A stretch of 41,687 nt of DNA from the IMG/VR virus record IMGVR_UViG_2585427754_000009; one strand, given 5' to 3'. The translations under genes were made by a program, and so were the position numbers. Every line of letters starts with the position of its first letter. The stretch's first letter is position 1. This document shows positions 1 through 41,687 of the stretch, piece after piece. The notes under the pieces are model-generated. The model saw only the letters and a list, made by a program, of their open reading frames with translations, searched no databases and was not told where the DNA came from. This stretch comes from a virus (taxonomy: Duplodnaviria; Heunggongvirae; Uroviricota; Caudoviricetes).

Positions 1-1164
1 TTACACATCATTAGTACCTTCCTTATTTTTTGACTGGGACAAATTTGGGACCGATGGGTTCAGGATCGAGTCTATTTGCCGTGCGTGTTCGGTAAGGTGA
101 TTAGGTGCAAGGTGAGCATATCGACGAACCATTTCGATAGACTCCCAGCCTCCCATTTCCTGTAACACTGACAACGGGACTCCGGCTTGAACCAGCCAAC
201 TTGCCCAGGTGTGTCTCAAGTCGTGAAATCTGAAATCATCAATACCAGCCCGTCTCAGCGCCGCTTTCCAGGCTGTGTTTGCGTCATACCGCATCTTCCT
301 TACTGTTGGCGCTTTCGTTCCGTCTGGTTTGGTACAGCTTTCCTTGTACACAAATACCCAACGGTGATGATTCCCGATTTGTTTTTTCAATACGCGACAT
401 GCAGTATCATTCAGCGCAACGCCAATTGCGCGGTTTGATTTACTCTCTTCCGGGTTTATCCATGCCACCCGGCGCTGCATATCTATTTGTTGCCATTCAA
501 GGTTGATGATGTTCGAGCGTCTTAAGCCTGTTGCCAGTGCAAATTCAACAACAGACTTTAATGGCTCCGGACATTCATCAATCAGCCTTTGTGCTTCATG
601 GGGCTCCAGCCAGCGGATCCGTTTATTCTTTGGTTGAGGCACTTTAATAATTGGTGCCTTATCCAGCATTTTCCATTCACGCTCTGCGGCTCTTAGTAGG
701 GCCTTTATAAATGAAAGATGCGTAGCCTTCGTTGCAACGGACGCTGGTTTTGGCGTGTATTCTGGAACAGGTTTCCCTTTTTTTCTGCATGCTTCTGCCC
801 TGAGTTTCCAGTTTTCCTCATGACGCCGGTTCGTCATTTTCTGCATTGCTGAATAAATTTTTGATTCAGTAATGTCTCTTAGTTGCATTCCTGCGAAATG
901 TTGAAGCCAGAATCCGATCCGGCTTTTGTCATCGTCCAGTGATTTTTTATGTGCTTTCTCTTCAAGCCACCTGACACACGCTTCCTCGAACGTTATATCA
1001 GGTATTTCACCAAGTTTGCTGACCCGCCATGCTTCAGCCTTTAGCTTGTCATGGAGTTCTGTCGCCTGCCTTTTGTCCTTTGTTCCAAGAGACTGTTTAA
1101 ATCTTTTACCGTTCGGCAATGTGAAACTGGCGTACCATATTTCACCTCTGCGGAAGAGTGACAT
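1..1164 (-). CDS. int: Tyrosine integrase, P22/SfV-type
   Basis: 387-aa ORF with stop at 1-3. N-terminus [14 protein letters not shown] and C-terminal HDLRHTWAS...MVRRYAHL (R-H-R-Y recombinase signature). Recognised from memory as P22-type Int. Last gene of the leftward operon; 5' end overlaps xis. Confidence 0.95.
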
Positions 1165-2058: not shown

Positions 2059-2585
2059 TTGCGTAACTCCGATAACTCGTTAAAGCGTTCCATAAACATC
2101 CCGTAGGCATGGCCCGGTGCCAGTGGAATCACGTTGAACATCTCTGTTGCCGGGATACCTTCCAGTACAGGCCAGAAAGAGCCATCATCAAGCCCGAGAT
2201 CGCGGCGTTCGGTTGCCAGCATGATGAGATCGGCATATTTCACGGGCGTACTCATAACTGGGGGTAACCCGTATTTCTCACGGATTACGGCGTCTATTTT
2301 TTCTTCCATTTGTTTATAGTCAGGAAGAAGGCGTTTCAGTGGTGCGGGAATGTCCTGGCAATACGCTTCTGTTGCATCATGCATTAACGCTTCAAAAGCA
2401 AATTCCTGCGGCACCAGCTGGCTGCAAAGAACCGCATGTTGGGCGACGCTGTAGAAGTGCGAAAGATGACCGGCAAAGCGACAGATATTTGAAAGGGAAA
2501 CCGCGATATCGTTAATATCGATGTCGTCTTTATTTATCCTGTCATAATAAAAATGCTTCCCGGAAAAAGTTTTAATAAATGACAT
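2049..2585 (-). CDS. HD-domain phosphohydrolase (YfdR-like 5'-deoxynucleotidase, 178 aa)
   Basis: Internal start MSFIKTFSG with GGAG 7 nt upstream (longer ORF reaches 2612). H..HD metal-binding motif (LMHDATEAY) and further His/Asp residues typical of the HD superfamily. Confidence 0.8.
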   Translation of the reverse strand: MSFIKTFSGKHFYYDRINKDDIDINDIAVSLSNICRFAGHLSHFYSVAQHAVLCSQLVPQEFAFEALMHDATEAYCQDIPAPLKRLLPDYKQMEEKIDAVIREKYGLPPVMSTPVKYADLIMLATERRDLGLDDGSFWPVLEGIPATEMFNVIPLAPGHAYGMFMERFNELSELRKCA

Positions 2586-2712
2586 TTTGTTCTCCACGTA
2601 TATGCGCTGCACCGCGCTGAATTCTGGTAAAAAGAATCCCTCACCATCCGGCGATTATTGAGTAAATTACGTTTCCATAAATGCCCCCGCAGGGGCATTT
2701 GCAGTAATGAAA

Positions 2713-3537
2713 TCAGGCGGTGAAAGTACCAATAAAGGTTTCTACTTTGCTGTCCTTGAATTTCTCAACAAGCAGATCACGAAATTCGTTAGCCATTTCT
2801 TCCTGCACCGCCTCCAGCTGAATAATGCGCAGAACCAGTACAGGACGATCGCCAGTGATAATACTGAGGCGTAATTTAAACGGACGTTCTTTCAGACCTT
2901 CAAACGGAACGCATTTAAATTCAAATGCCACTGGCATAATGTCTTTGGTCTTCGCTTCGACAGACTCCATCAGGGAGCGTTTGCCGCTGAAGTCATTATC
3001 TTCAAAATCAGCGGTCTGGTTTGCTTCAATCGTGATTTTACGGACAGCCGCAGCCGCTTTTGTTGCCTGAATAGCGTCACCATTAGCATCAAAGCCCACA
3101 AGATAGTCGGCCCAGTCTTCAATCCATTCTGCCAGTGACTTCTGGGAGTTACGCTCGCCGTTAACAGACAACAGAGCAGAGAACGGTGCTGTCTTTTTCA
3201 GTTTGAGTGTGGCGGTGTTATCTGCGTGACCTGGTTCATCAATAGTACCCAGGTTAAGCACACTGACGGCACGCATATTATCAGCATCGATAAAGCAGCG
3301 GGTGCCTTCATCTGCAAGATCTTTAGAATAACGGGTAAAGTCATCGATGCTGGCAGTGGAAAGCGCACCACGGAAACGGAAGCGATTTAAATTAAATTTT
3401 TCCAGATCATGAATGCGGAAATTCTCAGGCAATGCCACAGCATCGGCACCAATCTTACTGATAATTTCATTAACACCCTGAGCAGAAATAAGGGCATGGA
3501 TTTGATTAATTGCGGTTGCGTCTAAGTTCTGAGACAT
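2713..3537 (-). CDS. DUF2303 / YfdQ-like protein (274 aa)
   Basis: 274-aa ORF beginning [14 protein letters not shown]; recognised from memory as the YfdQ family of CPS-53-like prophages. Same leftward operon. Confidence 0.75.
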
Positions 3538-3602
3538 AATAAGTCCTCACTATATAAAGATATTCAGTGATGAGATAAATAATCAGTTAATTAAAAACGA
3601 TA

Positions 3603-3965
3603 TTAACGACCTGCTGCGCGGAGTTTTCCGTCAGGTTCACCGGCAAGAGTCAGTAACTGTCCCTGGTCTTCCTGCAGAATAGTCAGGCGACCACCGCGAT
3701 TGACATACATCGGCGTTTCGGTGGTGTCTTCTTCGGAAATTTTCCCGCGGTTAGTCGGGCGAACATATGAGAGTTTGTGTTTGATTTTCACACGGTTCTC
3801 ATCAAATGGTTCGATTTCCAGGTTGAGTGAGACCTTACCTTTGGTTTTCGTGTTCATCACACCGGAAGCGACTTCACTGAGAACTGCGCCGATTTTGGTT
3901 TCAAATACGCCGCCGTCCAGCTCCCCGATAAATGCCTGCACATCAGTACTGCGTTCGCTAGCCAT
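3603..3965 (-). CDS. Hypothetical early protein (YfdP-like, 120 aa)
   Basis: Start chosen at MASERSTDVQ (ATG at 3963-3965) because AGGAG lies 9 nt upstream; the ORF-track start at 4214 lacks an RBS and runs into structured non-coding DNA. Confidence 0.7.
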   Translation of the reverse strand: MASERSTDVQAFIGELDGGVFETKIGAVLSEVASGVMNTKTKGKVSLNLEIEPFDENRVKIKHKLSYVRPTNRGKISEEDTTETPMYVNRGGRLTILQEDQGQLLTLAGEPDGKLRAAGR

Positions 3966-4433
3966 TTTGCTGCTCCTCATCATATCGACCCTGCAAGGCC
4001 GATTAGTTTCTCCACAAAACAGAGAAGAACACCTGCGGTGGCAGCCGCCCGGATGGATTGGGTTATGAGCCCGTCGTCCGGTGATGCTCTTCTCTGTTTT
4101 GTAAAAAGGACGGTACCAGCCGGAAGCAAGAGTACAAGCTGGTACCGCCAGGACTACACACAGCATAAAGTTGTGGTGCCGGGTGCCTCCCGGTGCCTGG
4201 CGAAGGTTGCACACCAGGCGGGTGGGTATCTACAGAAGGTCGACTGTCAGCCTCAACCTTAACCCGCGTGCGCTGAGCCGCATTCACCACAACGCTAAGA
4301 ATTCTCTCTGGTTGAAAATACTTAGCTGTTATGTGCCTGCTTTTAGCCACATCAGGCGAGGTGGACCTGGTTATTCCCCAACAACAAGGATTCGGTTAAT
4401 CTGGTTATCCCCAACAACGCAAAAGGAAAAGAA

Positions 4434-4868
4434 ATGTCCGGTAATATCTACACGCTGTACAAATCCCACTGTGAAAATGTTGGAAAGTATCGGGGCATTG
4501 AAATCAGTGGGGTAGTGTCATCAGTCGAAATAAGCAAAGTCGAATCAAGGGCAACATTACTTACTCTTCTGGACCTTGTCTTACATGAGCACCGGAAGAA
4601 ATTCGGCACTCCCTATAATCAGTTGAATGGGAAAAAGGCTCTGGTTCACCTTATTCTGATGAAGCATCACTGGATGCCAAAACAGATTAATGAGATGAAA
4701 TTTGATGAACTTCTTCTTTCAATTCAGGATGAACTCACACTTGATAAAATAAGCGTAACCGCCCAGAAATTTTTAGATTATCGAGACTGGAGATCACAAA
4801 TTCATCACTTTGATGATTTTGACGAAAATGAATGGGATCCTAATTTGTCTGCACAATATCTAAAGTAA
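4434..4868 (+). CDS. Hypothetical protein, 144 aa, no family recognised
   Basis: ORF with AAGGAAAAG Shine-Dalgarno-like sequence 5-13 nt upstream of the ATG. Opposite orientation to the surrounding leftward operon. Preceded by two 18-19-bp direct repeats. Confidence 0.5.
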   Translation: MSGNIYTLYKSHCENVGKYRGIEISGVVSSVEISKVESRATLLTLLDLVLHEHRKKFGTPYNQLNGKKALVHLILMKHHWMPKQINEMKFDELLLSIQDELTLDKISVTAQKFLDYRDWRSQIHHFDDFDENEWDPNLSAQYLK

Positions 4869-4983
4869 CATCCTGTGATAAAACCGTGATTTCCTGATCC
4901 AGTTTTTTTAAGGAGTCTATTATTTCCTGTCGATAAGACAGCACTTCACGAAGCTGGTTTATAGCTGCCAGCTTCTTTGCCAT
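4840..4983 (-). CDS. Small ORF (47 aa), possible remnant of a leftward-operon gene
   Basis: In the pre-insertion reading frame a stop lies 2 codons upstream of the IS target site, so only a 47-aa ATG-initiated ORF (MAKKLAAINQLREV...) is possible. Weak RBS. Confidence 0.25.
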   Translation of the reverse strand: MAKKLAAINQLREVLSYRQEIIDSLKKLDQEITVLSQDVTLDIVQTN

Positions 4984-5031
4984 CCACTCGTAAATTTCCT
5001 CATTTGTGTATCCGGGCGCGACGATTTTGGG

Positions 5032-5040
5032 TTCTGTTTT
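5032..5040. repeat. Target-site duplication (TTCTGTTTT), left copy
   Basis: Identical 9-mer at 6097-6105 directly flanks the other IS end. Confidence 0.9.
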
Positions 5041-6096
5041 GGCTTTGTTGAATAAATAAGATTTCGTGCGAACGACCCTGTAGCTGGCTGGATTTTCAGG
5101 CAATACGCACGCTTTCTGGCATCCCAGCCTTTGTCATCCTGTTCAACGCACGCACCATGGCCATAGCTTCCGCTACCTGACCATCGTAGTCACGCAGCGT
5201 CAGTGAATCTCCCAACAACTGCTTCATTCTGTACATTGCCGTTTCCGCTATCGAGCGACGGTTATATTCCGTTGTCCATTTCCACCGTGCATTGCTTCCG
5301 CTCAGCCGCTGATTAGCAACGGCACGGTTGCGGTCTGCGTACTCACCGGGCCAGTAACCTGCTCCTTTTCGGGGAGGAATAAGCGCGCTGATTTTTTTGC
5401 GGCGCAGTTCATCGTGACAGAGCCGGGTATCGTAAGCCCCGTCTGCCGCGGCTGCCCTGATTTTTCTGTGAGTCTGCCGGATAAGGCCCGGGAAGGCTTC
5501 TGAGTCCGTGACGTTATTCAGCGACAGGTCTGCACAGACAACTTCATGTGTGTTGCTGTCAACAGCAAGATGCAACTTTCGCCAGATACGACGGCGCTCT
5601 TTGCCGTGCTTTCTGACTTTCCATTCGCCTTCACCAAAGACCTTCAGCCCGGTGGAATCAATCACCAGGTGTGCGATTTCACCCCGGGTGGACGTTTTGA
5701 AACTGACATTAACCGACTTTGCCCGCTTACTGACACTGGTGTAATCCGGGCAGCGCAACGGAACGTTCATCAGGGCAAAAATGGAATCAATAAAACCCTG
5801 CGCAGCCCGCAGGGTCAGCCGGAATACGCGTTTAATCACCAGAACGGTGGTGATGGCGAGATCAGAATAGCGCTGGGGCCTTCCTCGTGATGAAGGCGTT
5901 GCCGACTCATACCAGGCCTGAATCGCTTCATCATCCAGCCAGAAAGTGAGGGAGCCACGGTTGATGAGAGCTTTGTTGTAGGTGGACCAGTTGGTGATTC
6001 TGAACTTTTGCTTTGCCACGGAATGGTCTGTGTTGTCGGGAGGATGCGTGATCTGATCCTTCAACTCAGCAAAAGTTCGATTTATTCAACAAAGCC
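5041..6096 (-). mobile_element. IS903-like insertion sequence (IS5 family), 1056 bp
   Basis: Terminal inverted repeats GGCTTTGTTGAATAAAT(A/C) at 5041-5058 and 6079-6096 (17 of 18 identical). Single transposase ORF. Flanked by a perfect 9-bp direct repeat. Confidence 0.92.
5096..6064 (-). CDS. IS903-family transposase
   Basis: 322-aa ORF ...QKFRITNWSTYNKALINRGSLTFWLDDEAIQAWY... recognised from memory as IS903/IS102 transposase (DDE). True start may be a few codons inside the ORF. Confidence 0.92.
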   Translation of the reverse strand: MKDQITHPPDNTDHSVAKQKFRITNWSTYNKALINRGSLTFWLDDEAIQAWYESATPSSRGRPQRYSDLAITTVLVIKRVFRLTLRAAQGFIDSIFALMNVPLRCPDYTSVSKRAKSVNVSFKTSTRGEIAHLVIDSTGLKVFGEGEWKVRKHGKERRRIWRKLHLAVDSNTHEVVCADLSLNNVTDSEAFPGLIRQTHRKIRAAAADGAYDTRLCHDELRRKKISALIPPRKGAGYWPGEYADRNRAVANQRLSGSNARWKWTTEYNRRSIAETAMYRMKQLLGDSLTLRDYDGQVAEAMAMVRALNRMTKAGMPESVRIA

Positions 6097-6105
6097 TTCT
6101 GTTTT
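6097..6105. repeat. Target-site duplication (TTCTGTTTT), right copy
   Basis: Identical to 5032-5040. Confidence 0.9.
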
Positions 6106-7500: not shown

Positions 7501-8044
7501 GCATCACTGGAAAGTAGAAAAACAGCCTGAGTGGTACGTGAAAGCTGTCAGAAAAACTATCGCAGCGTTGCCGGGGGGGTACGCTGAAGCTGCTGACTGG
7601 CTGGATGTAACAGAGCACGCATTATTTAACCGCCTTCGTGCCGATGGCGATCAGATTTTCCCGCTGGGATGGGCAATGATTTTGCAACGTGCTGGTGGAA
7701 CTCACTTCATTGCTGACGCTGTGGCGCAGTCTGCAAATGGCGTCTTTGTGTCTCTTCCTGATGTCGAGGATGTGGACAACGCCGATATCAACCAACGCCT
7801 GCTGGAAGTCATTGAACAGATCGGCAGTTATTCAAAACAGATTCGTTCAGCAATTGAAGACGGTGTAGTGGAACCGCATGAGAAGACAGCAATTAACGAT
7901 GAGCTGTACCTCTCAATTTCGAAGCTGCAGGAGCATGCAGCTCTGGTCTACAAAATCTTTTGCGTTTCAGAAAGTAGTGACGCCCGCGAGTGTGCAGCTC
8001 CGGGCGCCGTGGCGTGTCGTGACTGTGGAGAAACTAACGCATGA
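7493..8044 (+). CDS. CII-like regulatory protein (CP76 / YdaT-like family)
   Basis: GTG start with AGGAGGTGA RBS. 183-aa product [21 protein letters not shown]... recalled as the phage CII (CP76)/YdaT-like family found after cro-like genes. Confidence 0.6.
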
Positions 8045-9332: not shown

Positions 9333-9821
9333 ATGAGTCTTTTGAATGAAGTTCAGAAATTCATTGAAGCCCATCCGGGATGTACTTCCGGAGACATTGC
9401 GGATGCTTTTGCAGGTTACTCACGGCAGCGCGTTCTGCAGTCAGCAAGCAAGTTACGTCAGAGTGGGCGTGTGGCTCACCGTTGTGAAGGAGATACACGC
9501 AGACATTTCCCGCGCCTGACTGAGAGAGCGCAGGAACCGGAACCACAACCAGTTCGAGAAACCAGACCTGTGCGCAATTTCTATGTCGGCACTAACGATC
9601 CCCAGGTGATTTTGTGCCTGACCCGCCAGGCTGAAGAACTGGAGTCCAGGGGCTTATACCGTCGTGCTGCAACCGTGTGGATGGCGGCATTCCGTGAAAG
9701 CCACTCCCAGCCAGAACGAAACAATTTTCTGGCGCGTCGTGAGCGGTGCTTACGGAAAAGCAGCAAGCGCGCTGCATCGGGTGAAGAGTGGTATCTCTCA
9801 GGGAATTACGTGGGGGCTTAA
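9333..9821 (+). CDS. PerC-like transcriptional activator family protein
   Basis: ATG at 9333 with GGGGGTGA RBS. Central LTRQAEELESRGLYRRAATVWMAAF recalled as PerC-family signature. Low certainty. Confidence 0.45.
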   Translation: MSLLNEVQKFIEAHPGCTSGDIADAFAGYSRQRVLQSASKLRQSGRVAHRCEGDTRRHFPRLTERAQEPEPQPVRETRPVRNFYVGTNDPQVILCLTRQAEELESRGLYRRAATVWMAAFRESHSQPERNNFLARRERCLRKSSKRAASGEEWYLSGNYVGA

Positions 9822-12013: not shown

Positions 12014-13009
12014 GTGACCGTGAGAGCACTACTGACCCCTGAAATTGCCCCGCGTATGGGGATCGTATTGTTCAGGCCAGGTTCAGAGCTGATGCCCTTG
12101 TTTATGCAGGGGCGTGTCCTGCTGGAGCCTGAGCCGGAACGTTATTCATCTTTCGCCAGTGGTGCCGTTCCCGCGGCATCACAACCGCTGGCGGATGATC
12201 CTGCCGTTCGGGCCGTGTTCCGCAATGAGGCAGTGATCCGTCGTGCTGGTGGCGTGGAATGTCTTGAAAGCTGGTTACTTCGTGAAAAAGGCTGCCAGTG
12301 GCTTCATTCCGACTGGCACAGCGAGAACATGACAACAATGCGACACGCTCCGGGCGCAATCCGTCTGTGCTGGCACTGCGATAACCAGCTGCGCGATCAG
12401 TTCACGGAACGGCTGGAATCAATGGCAACGGATAACTGTGCCCGCTGGGTGTTGTCTGTTGTGCGTCGGGATCTCGGTTTTGATGACAGTCACGTTGTGA
12501 CAATGCCGGAACTGTGCTGGTGGCTGATTCGTAATGACCTTGCGGACGCCTTACCGGAAAGTGCAGCCCGTAAGGCACTGAGATTACCGAAGCCTGTTGT
12601 GCCGTCTGTCACCCGGGAAAGTGACCTTGTGCCTTCGGTTCCTGCCACCAGCATCATCCAGGATAAGGCGAAAAAGGTGCTGGCGCTGAAAGTGGATCCG
12701 GAGTCGCCGGAGTCTTTTATGTTACGCCCAAAACGTCGCCGCTGGGTTAATGAAAAGTACACGCGCTGGGTTAAGACACAGCCGTGTGCATGTTGTGGAA
12801 AGCCTGCTGATGATCCCCACCACCTGATAGGTCACGGTCAGGGTGGAATGGGAACAAAAGCGCATGACCTCTTTGTGTTGCCTTTGTGCAGAAAGCATCA
12901 CGACGAGCTGCATGCGGATACCGTGGCATTTGAAGAGAAGTATGGCTCCCAGCTGGAGCTGATATTTCGTTTTATCGATCGTGCGCTGGCAATAGGTGTA
13001 CTGGCGTAA
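12014..13009 (+). CDS. DUF968-family protein with C-terminal Cys/His (HNH-like) motif
   Basis: GTG start. C-terminal CACCGKPADDPHHLIGHGQGGMGTKAHDLFVLPLCRKHHDELH; position in the nin-like region upstream of Q. Confidence 0.6.
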   Translation: MTVRALLTPEIAPRMGIVLFRPGSELMPLFMQGRVLLEPEPERYSSFASGAVPAASQPLADDPAVRAVFRNEAVIRRAGGVECLESWLLREKGCQWLHSDWHSENMTTMRHAPGAIRLCWHCDNQLRDQFTERLESMATDNCARWVLSVVRRDLGFDDSHVVTMPELCWWLIRNDLADALPESAARKALRLPKPVVPSVTRESDLVPSVPATSIIQDKAKKVLALKVDPESPESFMLRPKRRRWVNEKYTRWVKTQPCACCGKPADDPHHLIGHGQGGMGTKAHDLFVLPLCRKHHDELHADTVAFEEKYGSQLELIFRFIDRALAIGVLA

Positions 13010-13022
13010 GTGGAGAACGAGC

Positions 13023-13775
13023 ATGAACCTTGAAGCCTTACCGAAATATTACTCCCCAAAATCTCCAAAATTGAGCGATGACGCACCGGCGACAGGCTCT
13101 GGTGGTTTAACAATTACGGATGTGATGGCTGCGCAGGGGATGGTGCAGTCGAAAGCACCGCTTGGGTTTGCCTTATTCCTGGCAAAAGTTGGTGTTCAGG
13201 ATCCTCAGTTTGCGATTGAAGGTCTGCTCAATTACGCGATGGCACTGGATAACCCGACATTGAATAAATTGAGTGAAGAAACCCGGCTACAGATTATTCC
13301 TTACCTTGTGAATTTTGCCTTTGCTGATTATTCCAGGTCTGCGGCAAGTAAGGCTCGCTGTGAGCATTGTGCTGGTACTGGATTTCATAATGTATTGCGC
13401 GAAGTGGTGAAACACTCCAGAAGCGGGGAATCTGTTATCAAGGAAGAGTGGGTGAAGGAACTATGTCAGCATTGTCATGGTAAGGGAGAAGTCAGCACAG
13501 CGTGCAGAGGGTGTAAGGGTAAAGGTATTGTCCTGGATGAAAAAAGGACCCGGCTTCATGGCACGCCTGTTTATAAGATTTGTGGGCGTTGCAATGGAAA
13601 TCGGTTTAGCCGTTTACCAACCACACTGGCGCGGCATCATGTCCAGAAGCTGGTACCAGACCTGACGGATTATCAGTGGTACAAAGGATATGCAGATGTC
13701 ATTGATAAACTGGTGACAAAGTGCTGGCAGGAAGAAGCATATGCTGAGACGCAATTAAGAAAAGTGACGAGATAA
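13023..13775 (+). CDS. Q: Late-gene antiterminator Q
   Basis: Start MNLEALPKYY with GGAGA RBS. Paired CxxC zinc-finger motifs (CEHCAGTG, CQHCHGKGE, CRGCKGKG, CGRCNG). Immediately followed by promoter and terminator. Confidence 0.8.
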   Translation: MNLEALPKYYSPKSPKLSDDAPATGSGGLTITDVMAAQGMVQSKAPLGFALFLAKVGVQDPQFAIEGLLNYAMALDNPTLNKLSEETRLQIIPYLVNFAFADYSRSAASKARCEHCAGTGFHNVLREVVKHSRSGESVIKEEWVKELCQHCHGKGEVSTACRGCKGKGIVLDEKRTRLHGTPVYKICGRCNGNRFSRLPTTLARHHVQKLVPDLTDYQWYKGYADVIDKLVTKCWQEEAYAETQLRKVTR

Positions 13776-13806
13776 ATGATTTTCGCCGAAGATGGCGACA
13801 TAATTC

Positions 13807-13835
13807 TTGCATTTTTCAAAAAATATGGATAAGAT
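13807..13835 (+). promoter_or_regulatory. Late promoter pR' (and presumed qut site)
   Basis: TTGCAT (13807-13812), 17-bp spacer, TAAGAT (13830-13835); 32 bp after the Q stop. Confidence 0.6.
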
Positions 13836-13883
13836 TTTCCCAACGATGGGCTTTGTATGTCTACCGTTGATAAGATTTAAGAC

Positions 13884-13906
13884 CCCGCCGCTGAGCGGGT
13901 TTTTTT
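13884..13906 (+). terminator. Intrinsic terminator tR'
   Basis: CCCGC-cgctga-GCGGG hairpin followed by T7; about 50 nt downstream of the pR' -10. Confidence 0.65.
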
Positions 13907-35390: not shown

Positions 35391-36116
35391 ATGCATCGTA
35401 TAGACACGAAAACCGCGCAGAAGGATAAGTTCGGCGCGGGTAAGAACGGTTTTACCCGTGGTAACCCCCAGACAGGCACGCCTGCCACCGATCTGGATGA
35501 TGACTACTTTGACATGTTGCAGGAGGAGCTTTGCAGCGTGGTGGAGGCATCCGGTGCCAGCCTGGAGAAGGGGCGGCACGACCAGTTGCTTACCGCGCTT
35601 CGTGCGCTGCTGTTAAGCCGCAAGAATCCGTTTGGCGATATCAAATCGGATGGCACGGTGAAAACGGCTCTCGAAAACCTTGGTTTGGGAGAAGGCTCAG
35701 CATTACCTGTTGGGGTGCCTGTTCCGTGGCCTTCAGCCACTCCGCCAACAGGCTGGTTGAAATGCAATGGTGCGGCTTTTTCTGCTGAAGAATACCCGGA
35801 ACTGGCAAAGGCTTACCCGACAAATAAATTGCCTGATTTACGCGGTGAATTTATTCGTGGATGGGATGATGGGCGCGGGGTGGATTCCTCTCGTGGTTTG
35901 TTGACATCTCAAGACCATTTATTTGCTTCTCATGGGCACTGGTTTGACAAGTACTATGCGCTAACAGGTTTTGATCCAACGGGAGGTCGGTTCGTAGTTA
36001 CGGCTGATGCTTTCGGGGAACTTATTACGGCAAATTCAATTTCTACGGTATCGGTTGGTGGTTCTGAAACCCGGCCGCGCAACGTCGCATTTAACTATAT
36101 CGTGAGGGCAGCCTGA
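35391..36116 (+). CDS. Tail fibre protein (constant N-terminus joined to the currently expressed variable C-terminus)
   Basis: GGAG RBS. 241 aa. Recombination crossover site lies in codons 93-101. C-terminal collar-like motif [19 protein letters not shown]. Confidence 0.8.
35668..35693. repeat. Invertase crossover site (gix/pix-like), left
   Basis: CTCTCGAAAACCTTGGTTTGGGAGAA; the last 14 bp are a perfect inverted repeat of 37514-37527. Confidence 0.75.
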
Positions 36117-36718
36117 TGAATAAAGCCGTATTAAATAGCGAACTCATTACTACAAAGGCAGGAAACATTACCGTTTATAATTTTGATGCTGAGACGAAGG
36201 AATATCTTTCCACATCAACCGAATATCTTGTTGTGGGTGTCGGTATTCCGGCGTATTCCTGTTTAGATGCTCCTGGTACATATAAGGCTGGTTATACTAT
36301 CTGCCGTTCAGCAGATTTAAAATCATGGGAATATATGCCAGACCATCGCGGTGAAATCGTTTTTAGCACCGAAACAGGGGAATCAAAAGAAATCACAGCT
36401 CCGGGTGATTACCCTGATAATACAACCACTATCGCCCCGTTAACGCCATACGATAAATGGGATGGTGAGAAATGGGTGACGGATACCGAGGCACAGCACG
36501 GCGCAGCAGTAGATGCAGCAGAAGCACAGCGCCAGTCGCTGATTGATACTGCAATGGCCTCCATCAGTCTGATTCAGCTGAAATTGCAGGCCGGACGTAA
36601 ACTGACGCAGGCAGAAACAACCCGCCTTAACGCTGTGCTGGATTACATTGACGCGGTGACGGCAACAGATACCAGCACCGCGCCGGATGTCATCTGGCCT
36701 GAACTGTCGGAGGCGTAG
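36116..36718 (+). CDS. Tail fibre assembly chaperone (Tfa)
   Basis: 200 aa. The C-terminal third (ALTPYDKWDGEKWVTDTEAQ...DVIWPELSEA) is homologous to the C-terminus of the convergent minus-strand Tfa. Confidence 0.8.
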   Translation: MNKAVLNSELITTKAGNITVYNFDAETKEYLSTSTEYLVVGVGIPAYSCLDAPGTYKAGYTICRSADLKSWEYMPDHRGEIVFSTETGESKEITAPGDYPDNTTTIAPLTPYDKWDGEKWVTDTEAQHGAAVDAAEAQRQSLIDTAMASISLIQLKLQAGRKLTQAETTRLNAVLDYIDAVTATDTSTAPDVIWPELSEA

Positions 36719-37133
36719 GCCATTCAATATCTGGCGCACCGGAAGTATCGACCAGCTCCAGTGCGTCCAGATAATCCAGCCACAAATTATATTGCGCCAG
36801 TTCGTCACCTTTCAGACGACCAATAGCGGCTTTACCGGGCCATTGTTTACTGTTCATGTATTCGTTGGCCTGGTTAATTAATAGCTGTCTTTCTGATTCA
36901 GTAATTTCAATAAGCTCTTCATGCGTGGGTGGAGGAATATCTGCCCACGCAGGCAGCCCATCATTTCCGGCAATACGGATCTTTCCTTGTGGCGGTTCAG
37001 CCATAAACTCACTGATAATATTTTGATTCACTTCCTTAGCATCTGATAAATCCCATCCCTCTGATTTATATTTATCAATCATATCCACAGGGAAAAAAGC
37101 ATTATGCCTTGCGCTATAAACATATTCGTTCAT
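36690..37133 (-). CDS. Alternative tail fibre assembly chaperone (Tfa')
   Basis: ATG at 37131-37133 with AGGGTGA RBS. Product MNEYVYSARHNAFFP...DIEWPTPPTVQAR typical of the Tfa family. Convergent with tfa, 29-bp overlap. Confidence 0.8.
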   Translation of the reverse strand: MNEYVYSARHNAFFPVDMIDKYKSEGWDLSDAKEVNQNIISEFMAEPPQGKIRIAGNDGLPAWADIPPPTHEELIEITESERQLLINQANEYMNSKQWPGKAAIGRLKGDELAQYNLWLDYLDALELVDTSGAPDIEWPTPPTVQAR

Positions 37134-37153
37134 ATAAATCACCCTGAATAAAA

Positions 37154-37513
37154 TTACTCACCAACAGCCCACCAACTGTAATTCATCGATACCGTGTCGC
37201 TGGTTGATGACGTTCTGTAAGCAGAATTAAAGCCGGTTAACGTTGGGCCTTCTGCAGTCATCACGAACCCTCGCCCAGCGCCTAAAGGCGCACCGCCATC
37301 ACCAGAATGAGTAAGCATGGCGCAGTCCGCTTTTTTGGGGAAAGGGATGCTGAATGTAATTCTCATTGTTTGCGTCGATAATGTCGGCGTAACCGCACCA
37401 CGACCATATTGCAGGATTTTCCCGTTGGGTAATTTCATCCATCCATCACCACTGGCAAAAGAGGCCATGTCCGGTATCTGATTTTCCCCTGTCCCCACAT
37501 CCCGTTTTGCCGC
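37154..37513 (-). other. Silent alternative tail-fibre C-terminal coding segment
   Basis: Open frame without its own start codon; it begins inside the crossover site in the same codon phase (GLGE) as the expressed fibre gene, so inversion would fuse it in frame to the constant N-terminus. Confidence 0.75.
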
Positions 37514-37539
37514 TTCTCCCAAACCAACGTTTATGAAAA
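37514..37539. repeat. Invertase crossover site (gix/pix-like), right
   Basis: TTCTCCCAAACCAACGTTTATGAAAA; inverted copy of the left site; lies just upstream of the invertase remnant. Confidence 0.75.
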
Positions 37540-37593: not shown

Positions 37594-37722
37594 ATGCTTA
37601 TTGGCTATGTACGCGTATCAACAAATGACCAGAACACCGATCTACAACGTAATGCGTTGAGCTGTGCAGGATGCGAGCTGATTTTTGAAGACAAGATAAG
37701 CGGTACAAAGTCCGAAACCTAG
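37594..37722 (+). pseudogene. pin: Truncated serine DNA invertase (Pin/Gin/Hin family), 42 codons only
   Basis: AGGGGGAG RBS then MLIGYVRVSTNDQNTDLQRNALSCAGCELIFEDKISGTKSE, matching the Pin N-terminus from memory including the catalytic Ser in VRVSTNDQ; then an immediate stop and unrelated AT-rich DNA. Confidence 0.85.
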
Positions 37723-37817
37723 GGCTGACACTGCTGTTCTTGTTGCAAATTAAAGGATTTAATAGTGAGTAGCGGCCTTACTAATGTAAAGCCGCTATAA
37801 TCATTTTATTAATTGCA

Positions 37818-39707
37818 TTAATCGTGTTTTGGCCATACTTTCAATGCAATTTCCCCCAACTTTTTACCCCGCTCCAGGATTTCATCCTCATCCCATTTAT
37901 CCTTAACTATAAGTGGAATGTTCAGTCGTAGATTGGTGTGGACGATGAGAGCATCACGTTTTTTCAGAAATACAGCATTCTGAACAGAACGGTTTACGCT
38001 AAGGTTAAGCAAAGTTAGATTTCCCAACGTAGCTATCGCTTGTTGCCGTTTCCTTACCAGTAGCTGTTCAGGGGTAAGATCGGTTCCAGACAGAACAATT
38101 TGGTTCAATACCGTAGCATCTGAATTTGTCACCATATGACCATTTTCGAGAGGCCAACAGGAATACCAACTTTGAGGCATAAGATGATCGATATCGAGGT
38201 TAGAAAGATTTGGAACATCAGGCTTCTCTGTCTTCACTTGGCGACAAAGTTCTCTTTCAAGTTCCGTTAACATTGAGCGCATTTTCGGTGCGTCGAGCCT
38301 GCCAGGATAAAGTGGAGCATTGATGCAAGCGTTGAGAAATTCTGAGTCCCCAGGCCAACGTGAGGCTTCGCCATTTAAGCTATTGAGGATATTACGTAAC
38401 TCAACACTGGAAATTTCCGTTTTAGACAAGTGCCGCAATACATTCATAAATACATTGTTGTAATTCTTTGGCGTCAGGCCACATACGGCTCTTCGTACTA
38501 CGTAGGAGACAAGATCATTATACATGGCTGCTTTCTCATCATCGGCGATGTTAGCTATCGAAATGAACAAAGCAAGCGGATAAAGTGTCGTCACATCATA
38601 GGCTGCGATGCGATGTCCAAAGTGTGAGATGGGGGTTGTGCCAAAACCACCAACCAATTCTTTATATTGTGATGCATATTGTTTGAGGCGCTTTACTTGC
38701 AGATCTGCTCGTTGTGAAGGCAAGTCCTTACTTACATAATCACGATACTCATTGTAAAGACGAGACAGATCGATTTCACGTTGCCTTTCTGATTGCAATG
38801 TCGCATGCACTAGCCACTCCATGCGTGGTTTATTAATACGACCACGACGTTGTCTTTCTGACCAGTACGTATCTTCAAAGATCTTCCACTCATTCTCATA
38901 TAATTCAACAGCATTAATATTTTCATGTTCAGCGCACATAAAAATATAATTGCGAATAAGATCTGTGGCATGAAGTTCCGCACCTCTGCCATTTAATGTT
39001 TCAAAAATTATTTGAGCGTCATCTTCAGCCTCGAGAAATATGCTTACTAGTTTCAGATCCGTCAAGACAGCCTCAATTAATGCTACAGCATTTTCTCGTG
39101 GTGAGTGATTTTCTATTTTAATCCACTTTATAAAGGCTTCAGTAAAAAAACATAATGCTTCTAGTGATGGCGGGTGATTAAAATGCTTACGCAACGTACC
39201 ATGCTGCGTGAAACTATCAGAGAATACATTCCGGATATCGTCAATATTTTCAACATTAAAACTTTGAATAAAATGAGTTTGATCCCGAAAAGTTGGCCAC
39301 AGTTTGAAGCGCTCTACTTCTTTATTTCGCATTGTGTCTTCGTTTGAGTTTTTCAGGCAAGACGAAATGAGAGGCTCTAAGTTGGAAAGATCTGTCGCAC
39401 GTAATGCTAATCGGATGGATGCCAGAACATATTGAAGAGTGGTCAATCGTTGCTGACCATCAATAATATGTATGGAATCTACACCTAATAATCCTTTTTT
39501 TGGTTGAGGTTCCAGTACCACTGCACCAAGGAAATGGGGAGTTGGTTTTGTACCCGAGAGCCGGGATTGTGCTTTCTCTAGGATATCCTCCAGTAGAGCT
39601 GACCATTGGTTTCGCTGAGTCCATACATAGGCACGTTGATAGAATGGAACGCAGTATTGTCGGCGGTCTTGAAAAAGTTGTTGGACAGTTAGCGTCTCGG
39701 ATTTCAT
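37818..39707 (-). CDS. GmrSD-family type IV restriction endonuclease (DUF262 + DUF1524)
   Basis: N-terminal DUF262 motifs (VPFYQRAYVW and IIDGQQRLTTL). C-terminal DUF1524 His-Me finger region (DIDHLMPQSW...LGNLTLLNLSVNRSV). Start at MKSETLTVQQ (39705-39707) preferred over 39767. AT-rich island. Confidence 0.8.
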   Translation of the reverse strand: MKSETLTVQQLFQDRRQYCVPFYQRAYVWTQRNQWSALLEDILEKAQSRLSGTKPTPHFLGAVVLEPQPKKGLLGVDSIHIIDGQQRLTTLQYVLASIRLALRATDLSNLEPLISSCLKNSNEDTMRNKEVERFKLWPTFRDQTHFIQSFNVENIDDIRNVFSDSFTQHGTLRKHFNHPPSLEALCFFTEAFIKWIKIENHSPRENAVALIEAVLTDLKLVSIFLEAEDDAQIIFETLNGRGAELHATDLIRNYIFMCAEHENINAVELYENEWKIFEDTYWSERQRRGRINKPRMEWLVHATLQSERQREIDLSRLYNEYRDYVSKDLPSQRADLQVKRLKQYASQYKELVGGFGTTPISHFGHRIAAYDVTTLYPLALFISIANIADDEKAAMYNDLVSYVVRRAVCGLTPKNYNNVFMNVLRHLSKTEISSVELRNILNSLNGEASRWPGDSEFLNACINAPLYPGRLDAPKMRSMLTELERELCRQVKTEKPDVPNLSNLDIDHLMPQSWYSCWPLENGHMVTNSDATVLNQIVLSGTDLTPEQLLVRKRQQAIATLGNLTLLNLSVNRSVQNAVFLKKRDALIVHTNLRLNIPLIVKDKWDEDEILERGKKLGEIALKVWPKHD

Positions 39708-40512
39708 GGTATACCTGTAAGCGACATTGTACAAAAGTGAGGAGTTAATCTGATTTAGAACAATCATTTTATGTTGCTATGATACAACGTATTTGTTACC
39801 GGTTAAGTAAAAAACGCGTCTGAACGCTGACGTTTTAGGGCTTTACTAGTTATTCTTTCTTATCTCTTCATCATCCCATCGGCATCCTGTCGAGGTTGTT
39901 GACTTGTTGTTATTTATTTTGTTTAGGCGCTGTTTAATTATTATTGATGGGACTGGTGGTGAGAGGTGATTGAAACCGCAGACAGGTCGTATGCAAGACG
40001 TGCTGCGGTTGGCTGGTAAATGTTAGATAGTGCGAGTATTGAATGATTTCTAGCCGTTATTGATTTTACGTATTTTTGTATGAGAGGATTTGCATCTCCT
40101 GCCACCGACCCTCCATGACTTTACGCCACTGTCTCTAGGGCTGCTATGTGCCAGGAGCAGCCATTGCTAAGTCCATCCTGTATTGTGCAGGTCAGCTCGT
40201 TTTTAAAGAGTCCGGCCATCATCTTACTGGTACAGACACCATATACTTTGTGACGGTCAGGCTACATATGCACAACTCAACTTATTCATCTATTTTTTGC
40301 TTTAGCATGTCAGTGTTGCTTTCTCGTCGGCGGGTGAGCGGTGACCTGACCTGTCGATAAAGGAACGTAGCACGTTTTATGCAACACCCGCATGCGGCAG
40401 AAAATTATTGCCGAACGTTTACCCCTGTCAACAAGCTTTACTTTCTGAGGCGCGCCAGCCCGCGAGGAAAACAATCTGAACATCAAACAATTAATGACAC
40501 AAGAAATACGAT

Positions 40513-40539
40513 TAAAGATTTTTTTGTGCATGCCGATAG
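40513..40539 (+). promoter_or_regulatory. Sigma-28 (FliA) promoter of flxA
   Basis: TAAAGATT, 11 bp, GCCGATAG; near-perfect match to the class 3 flagellar consensus TAAAGTTT-N11-GCCGATAA; 24 bp upstream of the flxA ATG. Confidence 0.75.
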
Positions 40540-40562
40540 TGCTTTTTTAAAAGGAGAAATCT

Positions 40563-40895
40563 ATGTCTGTCACAATTCAGGGAAATACCTCAACCGTTAT
40601 TTCAAACAACTCCGCCCCGGAAGGAACATCAGAAATAGCCAAAATCACAAGACAAATTCAGGTGCTGACTGAAAAGCTTGGGAAAATCTCATCGGAAGAG
40701 GGGATGACGACACAGCAGAAAAAAGAAATGGCTGCATTGGTACAGAAGCAAATTGAAAGCCTCAGGGCTCAACTGGAGCAGTTGTTAAGGCAGCAGGCAG
40801 AGAAAAAGAATGAAGACGCGACAGTTCAGCCTGATAAAAAAGAAGAGAAAAAAGACGATACAAATACCGCTGGCACCATTGATATTTACGTCTAA
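40563..40895 (+). CDS. flxA: FlxA
   Basis: 110-aa product MSVTIQGNTSTVISNNSAPEGTSEIAKITRQIQVLTEKLGK... recognised from memory as E. coli FlxA; AAGGAGA RBS. Confidence 0.85.
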   Translation: MSVTIQGNTSTVISNNSAPEGTSEIAKITRQIQVLTEKLGKISSEEGMTTQQKKEMAALVQKQIESLRAQLEQLLRQQAEKKNEDATVQPDKKEEKKDDTNTAGTIDIYV

Positions 40896-40909
40896 GTGAC
40901 AGCCGTATT

Positions 40910-40932
40910 GTGGCCCTCATCGGGCCACTTTT
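40910..40932 (+). terminator. Intrinsic terminator after flxA
   Basis: GTGGCCC-tcatc-GGGCCAC hairpin followed by TTTT; 15 bp after the flxA stop. Confidence 0.7.
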
Positions 40933-41255
40933 CGCCATCAGTCTTTTCTTTAAAGACATATTATCTTTGTATCATTTCTGATAGTTAACATTACAAGATA
41001 TAAGTAATGGACGCACTCCCAATTAGTCTATTTAAATCGCCACGAGTTTAACTGACAACCCATGATCAATTATGAATTGCAACTATTTCTGTAGTCACTT
41101 TTGTGGGGACAGTCCACAAAACTGCCAACTTCCGCTTCTTGCTCATAGCGGACCTTACAACCACCTGATTGGTCCGCTCCGTGTCAGGAGCGGATACCGT
41201 AAGCATTTTATCCTCTGGAGGGGCATCCCTTTCAAGAAATGCATCCGTTGTGGAT

Positions 41256-41687
41256 TTATGCAACACCTGAAGCTACTAACAAAGAACAATTTGTCTGACC
41301 AAAGGCATTTTTTAGCAGCGGGAAAAGAGGGGGAAGTTCCGTTAGCGATTTTAGAGGCTTGAGGCTCTTAAGTGATTTAAGTGATGGCAAATTAGGTGTG
41401 GTAACCATGTCTTTTACTGCACAGGCAACATAGCCATCGTGATCAATCAACATACCATTAGTAAACCAGCCTAAATGATTCCCATTGAATCCATAAACAT
41501 CAAACTCATTGTTCTGGTTATGTTTAAGGTAGGCGCTTGGTTCACCCTCCCAACTATATAAAGTCAACTCGTCATCAAGTGAAATATAAACGACGGCGTT
41601 GCCTTGATTATCATATAGATCTAGGTCATTACTCGCAGTAACACAAGCTGAGAAAAGAAACATAACTAGCACGAGTGATTTTTTCAT
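41256..41687 (-). CDS. Hypothetical secreted protein (143 aa) with SLK repeats
   Basis: ATG is the last three bases of the window. Signal peptide MKKSLVLVMFLFSACVTA. Internal SLKSLKSLKPLKSL repeat. Confidence 0.6.
   Translation of the reverse strand: MKKSLVLVMFLFSACVTASNDLDLYDNQGNAVVYISLDDELTLYSWEGEPSAYLKHNQNNEFDVYGFNGNHLGWFTNGMLIDHDGYVACAVKDMVTTPNLPSLKSLKSLKPLKSLTELPPLFPLLKNAFGQTNCSLLVASGVA

What the first reader, a model, noticed from the sequence alone, without database searches (positions are those of the whole stretch)
37594..37722. Invertase gene cut to 42 codons: the tail-fibre switch is locked unless complemented in trans
The ORF starts with a strong RBS and the conserved Pin N-terminus including the catalytic serine region. 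It stops after 42 codons exactly where the sequence changes to AT-rich foreign DNA. The rest of the gene (about 450 bp) is absent from the window. The prophage is therefore fixed in the current fibre orientation unless a resident invertase of another element acts on the sites.
Basis: partly seen in the sequence, partly recalled or inferred. Interest (0 to 1): 0.65.

Follow-up and report, generated by a model that had tools for sequence, protein, structure and literature searches.

The report
Truncated invertase beside a still-flipping fibre switch
The prophage's tail-fibre invertase gene really is cut down to a 42-codon stub, but this stub plus the neighbouring restriction gene is a module shared by about 5% of complete E. 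coli genomes, and near-identical copies occur in both orientations, so the switch is most likely flipped by an invertase from another prophage rather than locked.

Summary
Window 37594-37722 encodes only residues 1-42 of a Pin/Gin-type serine invertase, and no other part of the gene lies in the window. It is not an assembly artefact: the same pin'-GmrSD junction occurs in 288-296 of 5,426 complete E. coli genomes. It sits at three or more attachment sites (thrW, ssrA, icd), so it is an inherited, mobile module of e14-like prophages, not a private lesion. A type IV restriction gene (GmrSD) occupies the cargo slot where e14 carries mcrA. The TAG stop comes from a 1-nt deletion found in some lineages only; degenerate pin sequence runs about 24 nt further.

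"Locked" is not what related genomes show. The cis elements look intact: two 26-bp crossover sites, in-frame alternative fibre cassettes, and the region matching the Fis enhancer inside the retained 126 bp. Siblings with identical crossover sites occur in both orientations: 79 versus 25 genomes in the ST95-type prophage, UTI89 versus IHE3034 differing only by a clean inversion, and two further cassette sets. Published PCR primers for a UTI89 "2.9 Mb inversion" map onto this segment. UTI89 also carries an intact Gin-like invertase elsewhere.

Trans-operated switches beside truncated invertases are already reported (EC958 Phi4). Interest is modest.

The parts
35391..36116 (+). Expressed tail-fibre gene S: constant part Sc (codons 1-98) fused at the left crossover site to the variable part Sv (phage tail collar type)
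   Evidence: 241-aa ORF with Pfam Collar domain; the crossover falls after codon 98
35668..35693 (.). Left 26-bp crossover site CTCTCGAAAACC-TT-GGTTTGGGAGAA (central TT at 35680-35681)
   Evidence: Inverted repeat 35675-35694 / 37513-37532, 95% complementary. Sites are identical in UTI89 and IHE3034, where the exchange maps to the 15 bp TTGGTTTGGGAGAAG
36116..36718 (+). Tail-fibre assembly chaperone U for the expressed fibre (tfaE-like)
   Evidence: Pfam Caudo_TAP, E 6.7e-32
36690..37142 (-). Silent alternative chaperone U'
   Evidence: Pfam Caudo_TAP, E 4e-30; follows S' after an in-silico flip
37154..37512 (-). Silent alternative fibre C-terminus Sv' (gp53-like C domain)
   Evidence: Pfam Gp53-like_C, E 1e-12; an in-silico inversion gives an in-frame 220-aa S'
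37514..37539 (.). Right 26-bp crossover site TTCTCCCAAACC-AA-CGTTTATGAAAA (central AA at 37526-37527)
   Evidence: its 26 bp are identical in e14, next to functional pinE (alignment A1)
37594..37722 (+). pin': 42-codon N-terminal stub of a Pin/Gin-family serine invertase (pseudogene)
   Evidence: PGAP 'incomplete, missing C-terminus'; alignments A1 and A2
37615..37678 (.). Homologue of the Fis-dependent recombinational enhancer (sis): two G-N13-C 15-mers at 37615-37629 and 37664-37678, with TAATG (37650-37654) between them. Centres lie about 95 and 145 bp from the right crossover centre
   Evidence: Positions. Three substitutions relative to e14 pinE, none in the two cores. [quoted passage not shown] Function is inferred, not tested
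37718..37745 (+). Degenerate pin-derived tail and junction; a 1-nt deletion here creates the TAG
   Evidence: Alignment A2; 15/24 in-register matches versus a null mean of 5.9
37818..39767 (-). GmrSD-type (DUF262/DUF1524) type IV restriction enzyme that replaces the 3' three-quarters of pin in the cargo slot
   Evidence: Pfam GmrSD_N and GmrSD_C; PADLOC mREase_IV full-length match, 1440 bits

Best explanation
pin' is a dead remnant. In an ancestor of this e14-like prophage family, the 3' three-quarters of the invertase gene was replaced by a cassette carrying a GmrSD type IV restriction gene. That is the same slot downstream of pin where e14 carries mcrA. The resulting pin'-GmrSD module has since spread with, and recombined among, prophages that integrate at thrW, ssrA and icd.

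The deletion removed the enzyme but left every recognisable cis-acting part of the switch. Both 26-bp crossover sites remain, with matching central dinucleotides. Both fibre and chaperone cassettes are intact. The first 126 bp of pin remain, and they contain the region matching the Fis-binding recombinational enhancer.

The segment is therefore an orphan switch. It flips when the cell contains another Gin/Pin/Cin-family invertase, for example from a co-resident P2-like, e14-like, Rac/Qin-like or P1-like element. It stays frozen in hosts that have none.

Shown: the truncation, the intact sites and cassettes, the module's distribution, both orientations among near-identical siblings, and a published PCR assay whose primers map to the segment in UTI89.

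Inferred: the identity of the trans-acting enzyme, enhancer function, and the state of the window's own host.
For: - Truncation and absence of the rest of the gene.
- Junction in 288-296 of 5,426 genomes. At thrW (with attR), ssrA and icd.
- Variable cargo downstream of intact pinE in relatives: mcrA, a LEM-3-like GIY-YIG gene, or hypothetical genes.
- Clean inversions between otherwise identical prophages that carry pin'. UTI89 versus IHE3034 have 100% identical flanks, with the exchange confined to 15 bp that include the central TT. L017 versus L055 is a second pair, and the window versus MIN6 a third, with boundaries exactly at the window's inverted repeats.
- Orientation counts of 79 versus 25 among ST95-type junctions.
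- Primers for the PCR-validated 2.9-Mb inversion in wild-type UTI89 (PMC6458436) map to L005 6190-6209 and 7888-7907 exactly. The third maps to about 9753-9772 only if one extra A in the stored primer text is allowed. These positions are the left flank, the inside of the segment, and GmrSD.
- UTI89 has an intact 199-aa invertase in a P2-like prophage, 85% identical to Gin and 77% to PinE.
- 39 of the 40 listed genomes with the window's allele of the module have 1-3 further chromosomal matches to the pinE+GmrSD query. These were not inspected but are most likely pinE-like loci.
- Precedent: EC958 Phi4 has a truncated invertase yet inverts, and trans action was proposed (PMC4134206).
- Enhancer architecture and position.
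Against: - No experiment links a specific invertase to this segment.
- 34 of 60 listed ST95-type genomes show no other chromosomal pinE- or gin-like sequence at blastn sensitivity. Three of these (PMV-1, GN06489, GN06758) are in the minority orientation. For them a lost helper, a plasmid-borne helper, or inheritance of the state has to be assumed.
- Orientation counts are not phylogenetically corrected.
- The enhancer region is not more conserved than the rest of pin' across alleles, so there is no sign of selection to keep it.
- No sequenced phage record carries the junction, so it is unproven that these prophages still make virions for which the switch would matter.
Confidence: 0.75

Rival explanations
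1. Frozen switch. In the window's own host no compatible invertase is present, so the fibre is permanently fixed in the Sv/collar orientation and the Sv'/U' cassettes are decaying baggage.
For: The cis-encoded enzyme is gone. Some carriers show no other chromosomal pinE-like locus: BE2-5 and 34 of 60 ST95-type genomes. The e14 site is empty in the closest genome, YF-1. Several IMG/VR loci with ample upstream sequence lack a recognisable left crossover site.
Against: Both cassettes and both sites are intact and in frame in the window. 39 of the 40 listed genomes with the window's allele have at least one further match to the pinE+GmrSD query, YF-1 included. The same cassette pair occurs inverted in MIN6, with boundaries at the window's repeats. 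Siblings demonstrably differ by inversion.
Confidence: 0.17
2. The inversions seen among siblings arise from RecA-dependent homologous recombination between the inverted repeats, not from a site-specific invertase.
For: No helper invertase was detected in some genomes that carry the minority orientation.
Against: The identical repeat is only about 20 bp. The exchange interval is 15 bp and abuts the central dinucleotide of a canonical 26-bp Din-family site. That is below the length usually needed for efficient RecA recombination (established knowledge). The inversion is frequent enough to be detected by short-read mapping and PCR in a culture (PMC6458436).
Confidence: 0.04
3. The 42-residue peptide is itself functional, for example as a regulator or dominant-negative subunit, and is kept for that reason.
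For: The ORF keeps its Shine-Dalgarno sequence and start codon. Between the window and UTI89, 5 of 6 differences in pin' are synonymous.
Against: ORF length varies between lineages (42, 47 or 60 codons). Some alleles have substitutions in the catalytic YVRVS motif (YVCVS, YVFVS) and NT to KI. The shared synonymous variants are the same ones found in intact pinE alleles, which points to recombination with intact genes rather than selection on the stub.
Confidence: 0.03
4. Assembly or sequencing artefact: the gene is really full length.
For: None found.
Against: The identical junction is present in 288-296 independent complete genomes and in 41 IMG/VR contigs.
Confidence: 0.01

Closest known systems
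e14 P segment with pinE and mcrA (E. coli K-12)
   Same: Same prophage family: ymfQ-type baseplate, Sc/Sv fibre, tfaE-type chaperones. The right crossover site is identical, and the first 124 nt of pin are about 97% identical. A type IV restriction gene sits immediately downstream of pin. In MEI148-20EC the module occupies exactly the e14 position at icd.
   Different: pinE is intact (184 aa) in e14. Here only codons 1-42 remain, and GmrSD, on the opposite strand, replaces both the rest of pin and mcrA.
EC958 (ST131) prophage Phi4: invertible tail-fibre segment with a truncated invertase (Forde et al. 2014, PMC4134206)
   Same: The invertase lacks its DNA-binding domain, yet PacBio reads show both orientations. 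The authors propose action in trans by another prophage's invertase.
   Different: A different prophage with different crossover sites (TTATCGAATACCTC GGTTTACAGGAA) and a 3.1-kb segment. No GmrSD junction is described there.
UTI89 '2.9 Mb phage inversion' (Russell et al. 2019, PMC6458436)
   Same: It is the same module. The primers map to the ssrA prophage segment flanked by pin' and GmrSD, and its crossover sites are identical to the window's.
   Different: Integrated at ssrA rather than thrW. The cassettes are about 94-95% identical to the window's. The paper did not note the truncated invertase and mentioned only that the other prophage inversion, at 0.9 Mb, had a linked invertase.
Mu G segment with gin and the sis enhancer; Salmonella hin
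   Same: Fis/enhancer-dependent serine invertase systems with 26-bp sites and an enhancer inside the 5' end of the invertase gene, about 100 bp from the proximal site. Layout is the same: Sc/Sv-U-U'-Sv'-invertase.
   Different: Those systems encode their own enzyme. pinE and gin are 71% identical at the DNA level.

Membership tests
Gin/Hin/Cin/Pin (Din) serine DNA invertase gene | N-terminal catalytic motif with the nucleophilic serine (YVRVS-TxxQ) | tested here: met
   Residues 1-42 match the Pfam Resolvase domain (E 4e-9). 93% identity to PinE residues 1-44.
Gin/Hin/Cin/Pin (Din) serine DNA invertase gene | Complete catalytic domain plus oligomerisation helix E (about residues 43-135) | tested here: not met
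   Nothing beyond residue 44 is found anywhere in the window or within 9 kb downstream in YF-1.
Gin/Hin/Cin/Pin (Din) serine DNA invertase gene | C-terminal helix-turn-helix DNA-binding domain | tested here: not met
   Absent. PGAP: 'missing C-terminus'. The ORF is therefore a pseudogene, not a functional family member.
Fis/enhancer-dependent invertible tail-fibre segment (G/C/P-segment type) | Two 26-bp crossover sites in inverted orientation with identical central dinucleotides | tested here: met
   35668-35693 (TT) and 37514-37539 (AA on the + strand).
Fis/enhancer-dependent invertible tail-fibre segment (G/C/P-segment type) | A constant fibre N-terminus that fuses in frame to either of two C-terminal cassettes, each with its own chaperone | tested here: met
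   S of 241 aa, flipped S' of 220 aa, two Caudo_TAP genes.
Fis/enhancer-dependent invertible tail-fibre segment (G/C/P-segment type) | Recombinational enhancer with two Fis sites about 100 bp from one crossover site | tested here: inconclusive
   The homologous sequence is present at 37615-37678, with 3 substitutions relative to e14 pinE and both candidate Fis cores unchanged. Fis binding and enhancer activity cannot be tested with these tools.
Fis/enhancer-dependent invertible tail-fibre segment (G/C/P-segment type) | Invertase encoded next to the segment | tested here: not met
   Only the 42-codon stub is present.
Fis/enhancer-dependent invertible tail-fibre segment (G/C/P-segment type) | The segment actually inverts | tested here: met
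   Shown for sibling loci with identical sites: and PCR in UTI89 (PMC6458436). Not testable for the window's own strain.
GmrSD type IV restriction enzyme | N-terminal DUF262 (ParB-like NTPase) plus C-terminal DUF1524 (HNH-type) domains in one polypeptide | tested here: met
   Pfam GmrSD_N (E 7e-34) and GmrSD_C (E 5e-20). PADLOC mREase_IV covers 629 of 629 profile positions. Activity not tested.

The most novel reading that the evidence does not exclude
e14-family phages carrying pin'-GmrSD have 'outsourced' their invertase. The break point would be retained because it keeps the enhancer and the sites, so the phage trades its own enzyme for a defence gene. Its host-range switch then runs only in polylysogens that supply a Gin/Pin-type invertase, which would couple tail-fibre variation to the presence of other prophages.
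Probability: 0.15. Interest if true: 0.5.

Novelty: new member of a known kind. Interest (0 to 1): 0.3.

Why it matters
It shows that a missing invertase does not mean a frozen switch. About one in twenty complete E. coli genomes, including the ST95 ExPEC strains UTI89, IHE3034, S88 and APEC O1, carry this orphan fibre switch, and its state depends on other mobile elements in the cell.

This matters in three practical ways:
- Annotation: the stub and the silent cassettes are easily mislabelled.
- Assembly: alternative orientations can produce spurious contigs.
- Host-range prediction for prophages.

It is also a clear example of a defence gene displacing a phage function at the cargo hotspot downstream of pin.

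Tried and rejected
- Looked for the missing two-thirds of pin in the window and 9 kb downstream by tblastn: nothing.
- Searched INPHARED phage records for the junction: none. Only the fibre cassettes and flxA matched.
- Scanned GTDB species representatives for the junction 25-mer: 0 hits.
- Tried to locate the extra pinE-like locus of YF-1 by walking to the e14 site. icd-iraM is unoccupied there, so the locus is elsewhere and was not found.
- Asked whether the enhancer part of pin' is better conserved than the rest across about 35 alleles. It is not, so I make no claim of selection.
- The terminator and promoter scan around the junction was uninformative.
- Could not retrieve Johnson's review of serine invertases, so the enhancer sequence comparison rests on descriptions in PMC3798978 and on homology to e14 and Mu.
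- Considered RecA-mediated inversion, a functional mini-peptide and an assembly artefact; all rejected (see rival explanations).

Full report
**What is at the coordinates**

Window 37594-37722 (+) is an ATG-initiated ORF with a GGGGGAG ribosome-binding site 5 nt upstream. It translates to MLIGYVRVSTNDQNTDLQRNALSCAGCELIFEDKISGTKSET*. Pfam places residues 3-41 in the Resolvase N-terminal domain (E 4e-9). tblastn with K-12 PinE aligns residues 1-44 at 93% identity (E 4e-23). It finds no other piece of Pin in the window, nor in the 9 kb beyond it in the closest genome. NCBI's pipeline annotates the same ORF in E. coli YF-1 as "recombinase family protein, incomplete, missing C-terminus". The core observation is therefore correct.

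**Context**

The window is an e14/SfV-like prophage with an HK97-type head and a Mu-type contractile tail. Its integrase stop codon is at window position 1-3, and in YF-1 tRNA-Thr (thrW) lies about 15 bp beyond the integrase stop. YF-1 is 99.8% identical to the window over 13884-41687.

The tail-fibre region has the classic layout. S (35391-36116) is followed by chaperone U (36116-36718). Then come U' (36690-37142) and Sv' (37154-37512) on the minus strand, and then pin'.

A 20-nt inverted repeat (35675-35694 / 37513-37532) lies within two 26-bp sites of the Gin/Pin type:
- CTCTCGAAAACC-TT-GGTTTGGGAGAA
- TTCTCCCAAACC-AA-CGTTTATGAAAA

The right-hand site is identical to the one next to functional pinE in e14. 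Inverting the segment in silico fuses Sc in frame to Sv', giving a 220-aa fibre followed by U'. Both alternatives are intact.

Downstream of pin' lies a 649-aa GmrSD type IV restriction enzyme on the minus strand (Pfam GmrSD_N and GmrSD_C; PADLOC mREase_IV, 1440 bits). After it come a ydfV fragment, flxA and a "4-fold beta flower" gene. The thrW 3' repeat that marks attR lies about 350 bp past the window end.

**The break point**

Alignment with three full-length pinE genes shows perfect colinearity up to 37717. Variants of the junction in MEI148-20EC and STK78-E carry one extra G and therefore have no TAG; their ORFs run to 47 and 60 codons. In these variants the next 24 nt still match pinE in register at 15/24. 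The null mean is 5.9, and none of about 7,800 null positions reached 15.

So pin-derived sequence continues in degenerate form to about 37745. The stop at codon 43 is a secondary frameshift shared by the window, the ST95 strains and MIN6.

GC content does not step at the stop. pin' is 43.5% GC, exactly like the first 124 nt of intact pinE. The spacer is 36% and GmrSD 41%.

**It is a shared module, not a private lesion or an artefact**

The 341-bp junction is present at >=80% coverage in 288 of 5,426 complete E. coli genomes, at 94.7-100% identity. pin' plus GmrSD together are present in 296. The junction 25-mer also occurs in 41 IMG/VR contigs. It is absent from GTDB species representatives and from deposited phage genomes.

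The module sits at the right end of related prophages at several attachment sites:
- thrW: YF-1 and the window.
- ssrA: UTI89, IHE3034 and MIN6.
- icd: MEI148-20EC, exactly where e14 has pinE-mcrA.
- A fourth, uncharacterised context in STK78-E.

Relatives with an intact pinE carry different cargo in the same slot: mcrA, a LEM-3-like GIY-YIG gene, or hypothetical genes. The simplest history is that a cargo exchange at this hotspot brought in GmrSD and removed the 3' three-quarters of pin. The module was then spread by phage movement and recombination.

Recombination is visible in the stub itself. Its synonymous polymorphisms are the same as those of intact pinE alleles. Lineage-specific changes include hits to the catalytic motif (YVCVS, YVFVS), as expected for a pseudogene.

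**Is the switch locked?**

The comparative data say no.

UTI89 and IHE3034 are both ST95 and carry the same ssrA prophage. Their flanks are 100% identical over 6.9 kb and 8.9 kb. The 1.9-kb segment between the crossover sites is inverted, with only the two site-specific mismatches. The exchange is confined to TTGGTTTGGGAGAAG, directly abutting the central dinucleotide. These sites are identical to the window's.

Searching each orientation's right-hand junction gives 79 genomes of the UTI89 type and 25 of the IHE3034 type. Nearly all are at 99.9-100% identity. Both states occur within the same strain collections (N-, GN-, MS-, AH- and FDAARGOS series) and within the same serotypes.

Two further cassette sets show the same pattern:
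- L017 versus L055 have collinear flanks and a 1.55-kb segment inverted at 99.7% identity.
- The window versus MIN6 have flanks at 96-97% identity, and the segment 35675-37532 is inverted at 95%.

There is also published experimental support. Russell et al. (PMC6458436) detected an "inversion at 2.9 Mb" in a UTI89 prophage and validated it by PCR, including in cells not overexpressing any recombinase. Two of their primers map exactly, to the ymfQ-side flank (L005 6190-6209) and inside the segment (7888-7907). The third maps to GmrSD (about 9753-9772) if one extra A in the stored primer text is allowed. The paper noted a linked invertase only for the other prophage inversion, at 0.9 Mb.

**How it most likely works**

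Fis-dependent invertases need two crossover sites plus an enhancer. The hin enhancer is a 65-bp element with a Fis site at each end and AT-rich ATTTA/TAATG tracts between them. It lies about 100 bp from hixL, on the hin gene. For Mu the stimulatory site is "within the invertase gene" (PMC3798978, PMC9368917).

The homologous stretch of pin' is 37615-37678. It has G-N13-C 15-mers at 37615-37629 and 37664-37678, with TAATG at 37650-37654. Their centres lie about 95 and 145 bp from the right crossover centre. It differs from the e14 sequence at three positions, none in the two cores. It lies wholly inside the retained 126 bp.

The deletion thus removed the enzyme but left the recognisable cis elements. 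The switch should respond to any compatible invertase supplied in trans. Cross-complementation among Gin, Cin, Pin and Hin is established knowledge, and it was invoked for the truncated invertase of EC958 Phi4 (PMC4134206).

UTI89 has a candidate helper: an intact 199-aa invertase in a P2-like prophage at 918974-919573. It is 85% identical to Gin and 77% identical to PinE.

Among the 40 listed genomes that carry the window's allele of the module, 39 have one to three further chromosomal matches to the combined pinE+GmrSD query, YF-1 included. I did not inspect those extra matches. They are most likely pinE-like loci, because GmrSD is unlikely to have DNA-level paralogues. blastn at this setting detects relatives as distant as gin, at 71% identity.

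**What remains open**

34 of 60 listed ST95-type genomes show no second chromosomal pinE- or gin-like sequence. Three of them (PMV-1, GN06489, GN06758) are in the minority orientation. In those strains the switch is presumably frozen in an inherited state, or the helper is on a plasmid or has been lost.

In the raw counts, 7 of 10 minority-orientation strains have an extra locus, against 15 of 46 majority-orientation strains (Fisher p = 0.04). This is not corrected for shared ancestry and is only suggestive.

I could not locate YF-1's extra locus; its e14 site is empty. The window alone cannot show what its own host carries. I found no evidence that the enhancer is under special constraint, and none that these prophages still produce virions.

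**Verdict**

The truncation is real and reproducible. However, the evidence shows that copies of this same module in sibling genomes have inverted, and the stub is an old, widely shared junction with a defence gene rather than a recent lesion.

Trans-operated fibre switches next to truncated invertases have already been described. This is therefore a new, well-populated member of a known kind. Interest is modest.

Noticed in passing
window 37818-39767 (-), compared with L009 3696-4529 and L008 3650-4423: The slot immediately downstream of pin is a variable cargo or defence hotspot in this prophage family. It holds GmrSD here, McrA in e14, and a LEM-3-like GIY-YIG nuclease or hypothetical genes elsewhere. 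Two different type IV restriction enzymes occupy the same position.
   Followed up: partly
window 39800-41687 and L001 14140-14169: attR (a 30-nt copy of the thrW 3' end) lies about 350 bp beyond the window end. The ydfV fragment, flxA and the '4-fold beta flower' gene are therefore inside the att-bounded element. The flxA stretch (window about 40143-41157) is 99.4% identical to Escherichia phage PhiR42_1, which suggests a mosaic with, or a remnant of, a Qin-like lambdoid element.
   Followed up: partly
L017, L018, L021, L033, L047, L049, L050, L055 (pin' alleles): Some copies of the stub carry substitutions in the catalytic motif (YVRVS to YVCVS or YVFVS) and NT to KI, yet their segment still occurs in both orientations (L017 versus L055). 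Other alleles share synonymous variants with intact pinE genes, which implies recombination between stubs and intact genes.
   Followed up: partly
L004 8986-9069 (E. coli EC-129): Here the stub is also truncated at its 5' end (it starts at Pin residue 19). It sits next to lambda-like tail genes (gpJ, lom) and an integrase fragment. This is a further-decayed copy without the invertible segment.
   Followed up: no
ST95 genomes: Among ST95-type carriers, the minority orientation is enriched in strains with an additional pinE/gin-like chromosomal locus: 7 of 10 versus 15 of 46 (Fisher p = 0.04, not corrected for phylogeny).
   Followed up: partly
L030, L035, L038, L040, L051, L052, L054: These IMG/VR loci have more than 4 kb of sequence upstream of the junction, but no left crossover site was recognised with my pattern. 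They may have divergent sites or may have lost one site, which would make them truly locked.
   Followed up: no
window 2263-6097 and 13005-13884 versus L003: The window differs from YF-1 in the early region. YF-1 has an IS1 in yfdR. It also has a 2.85-kb insert (a nucleoid-associated protein plus a hypothetical gene) next to the Q antiterminator, where the window has 0.88 kb. The window therefore comes from a related but different strain.
   Followed up: no
window 36116-36718 (L001 8217-8816): PGAP marks the U chaperone gene as 'incomplete, missing C-terminus' in YF-1. The ORF is 200 aa, the same length as the tfaE gene annotated as intact in UTI89. This is probably an annotation inconsistency caused by the overlapping convergent U' gene.
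   Followed up: no
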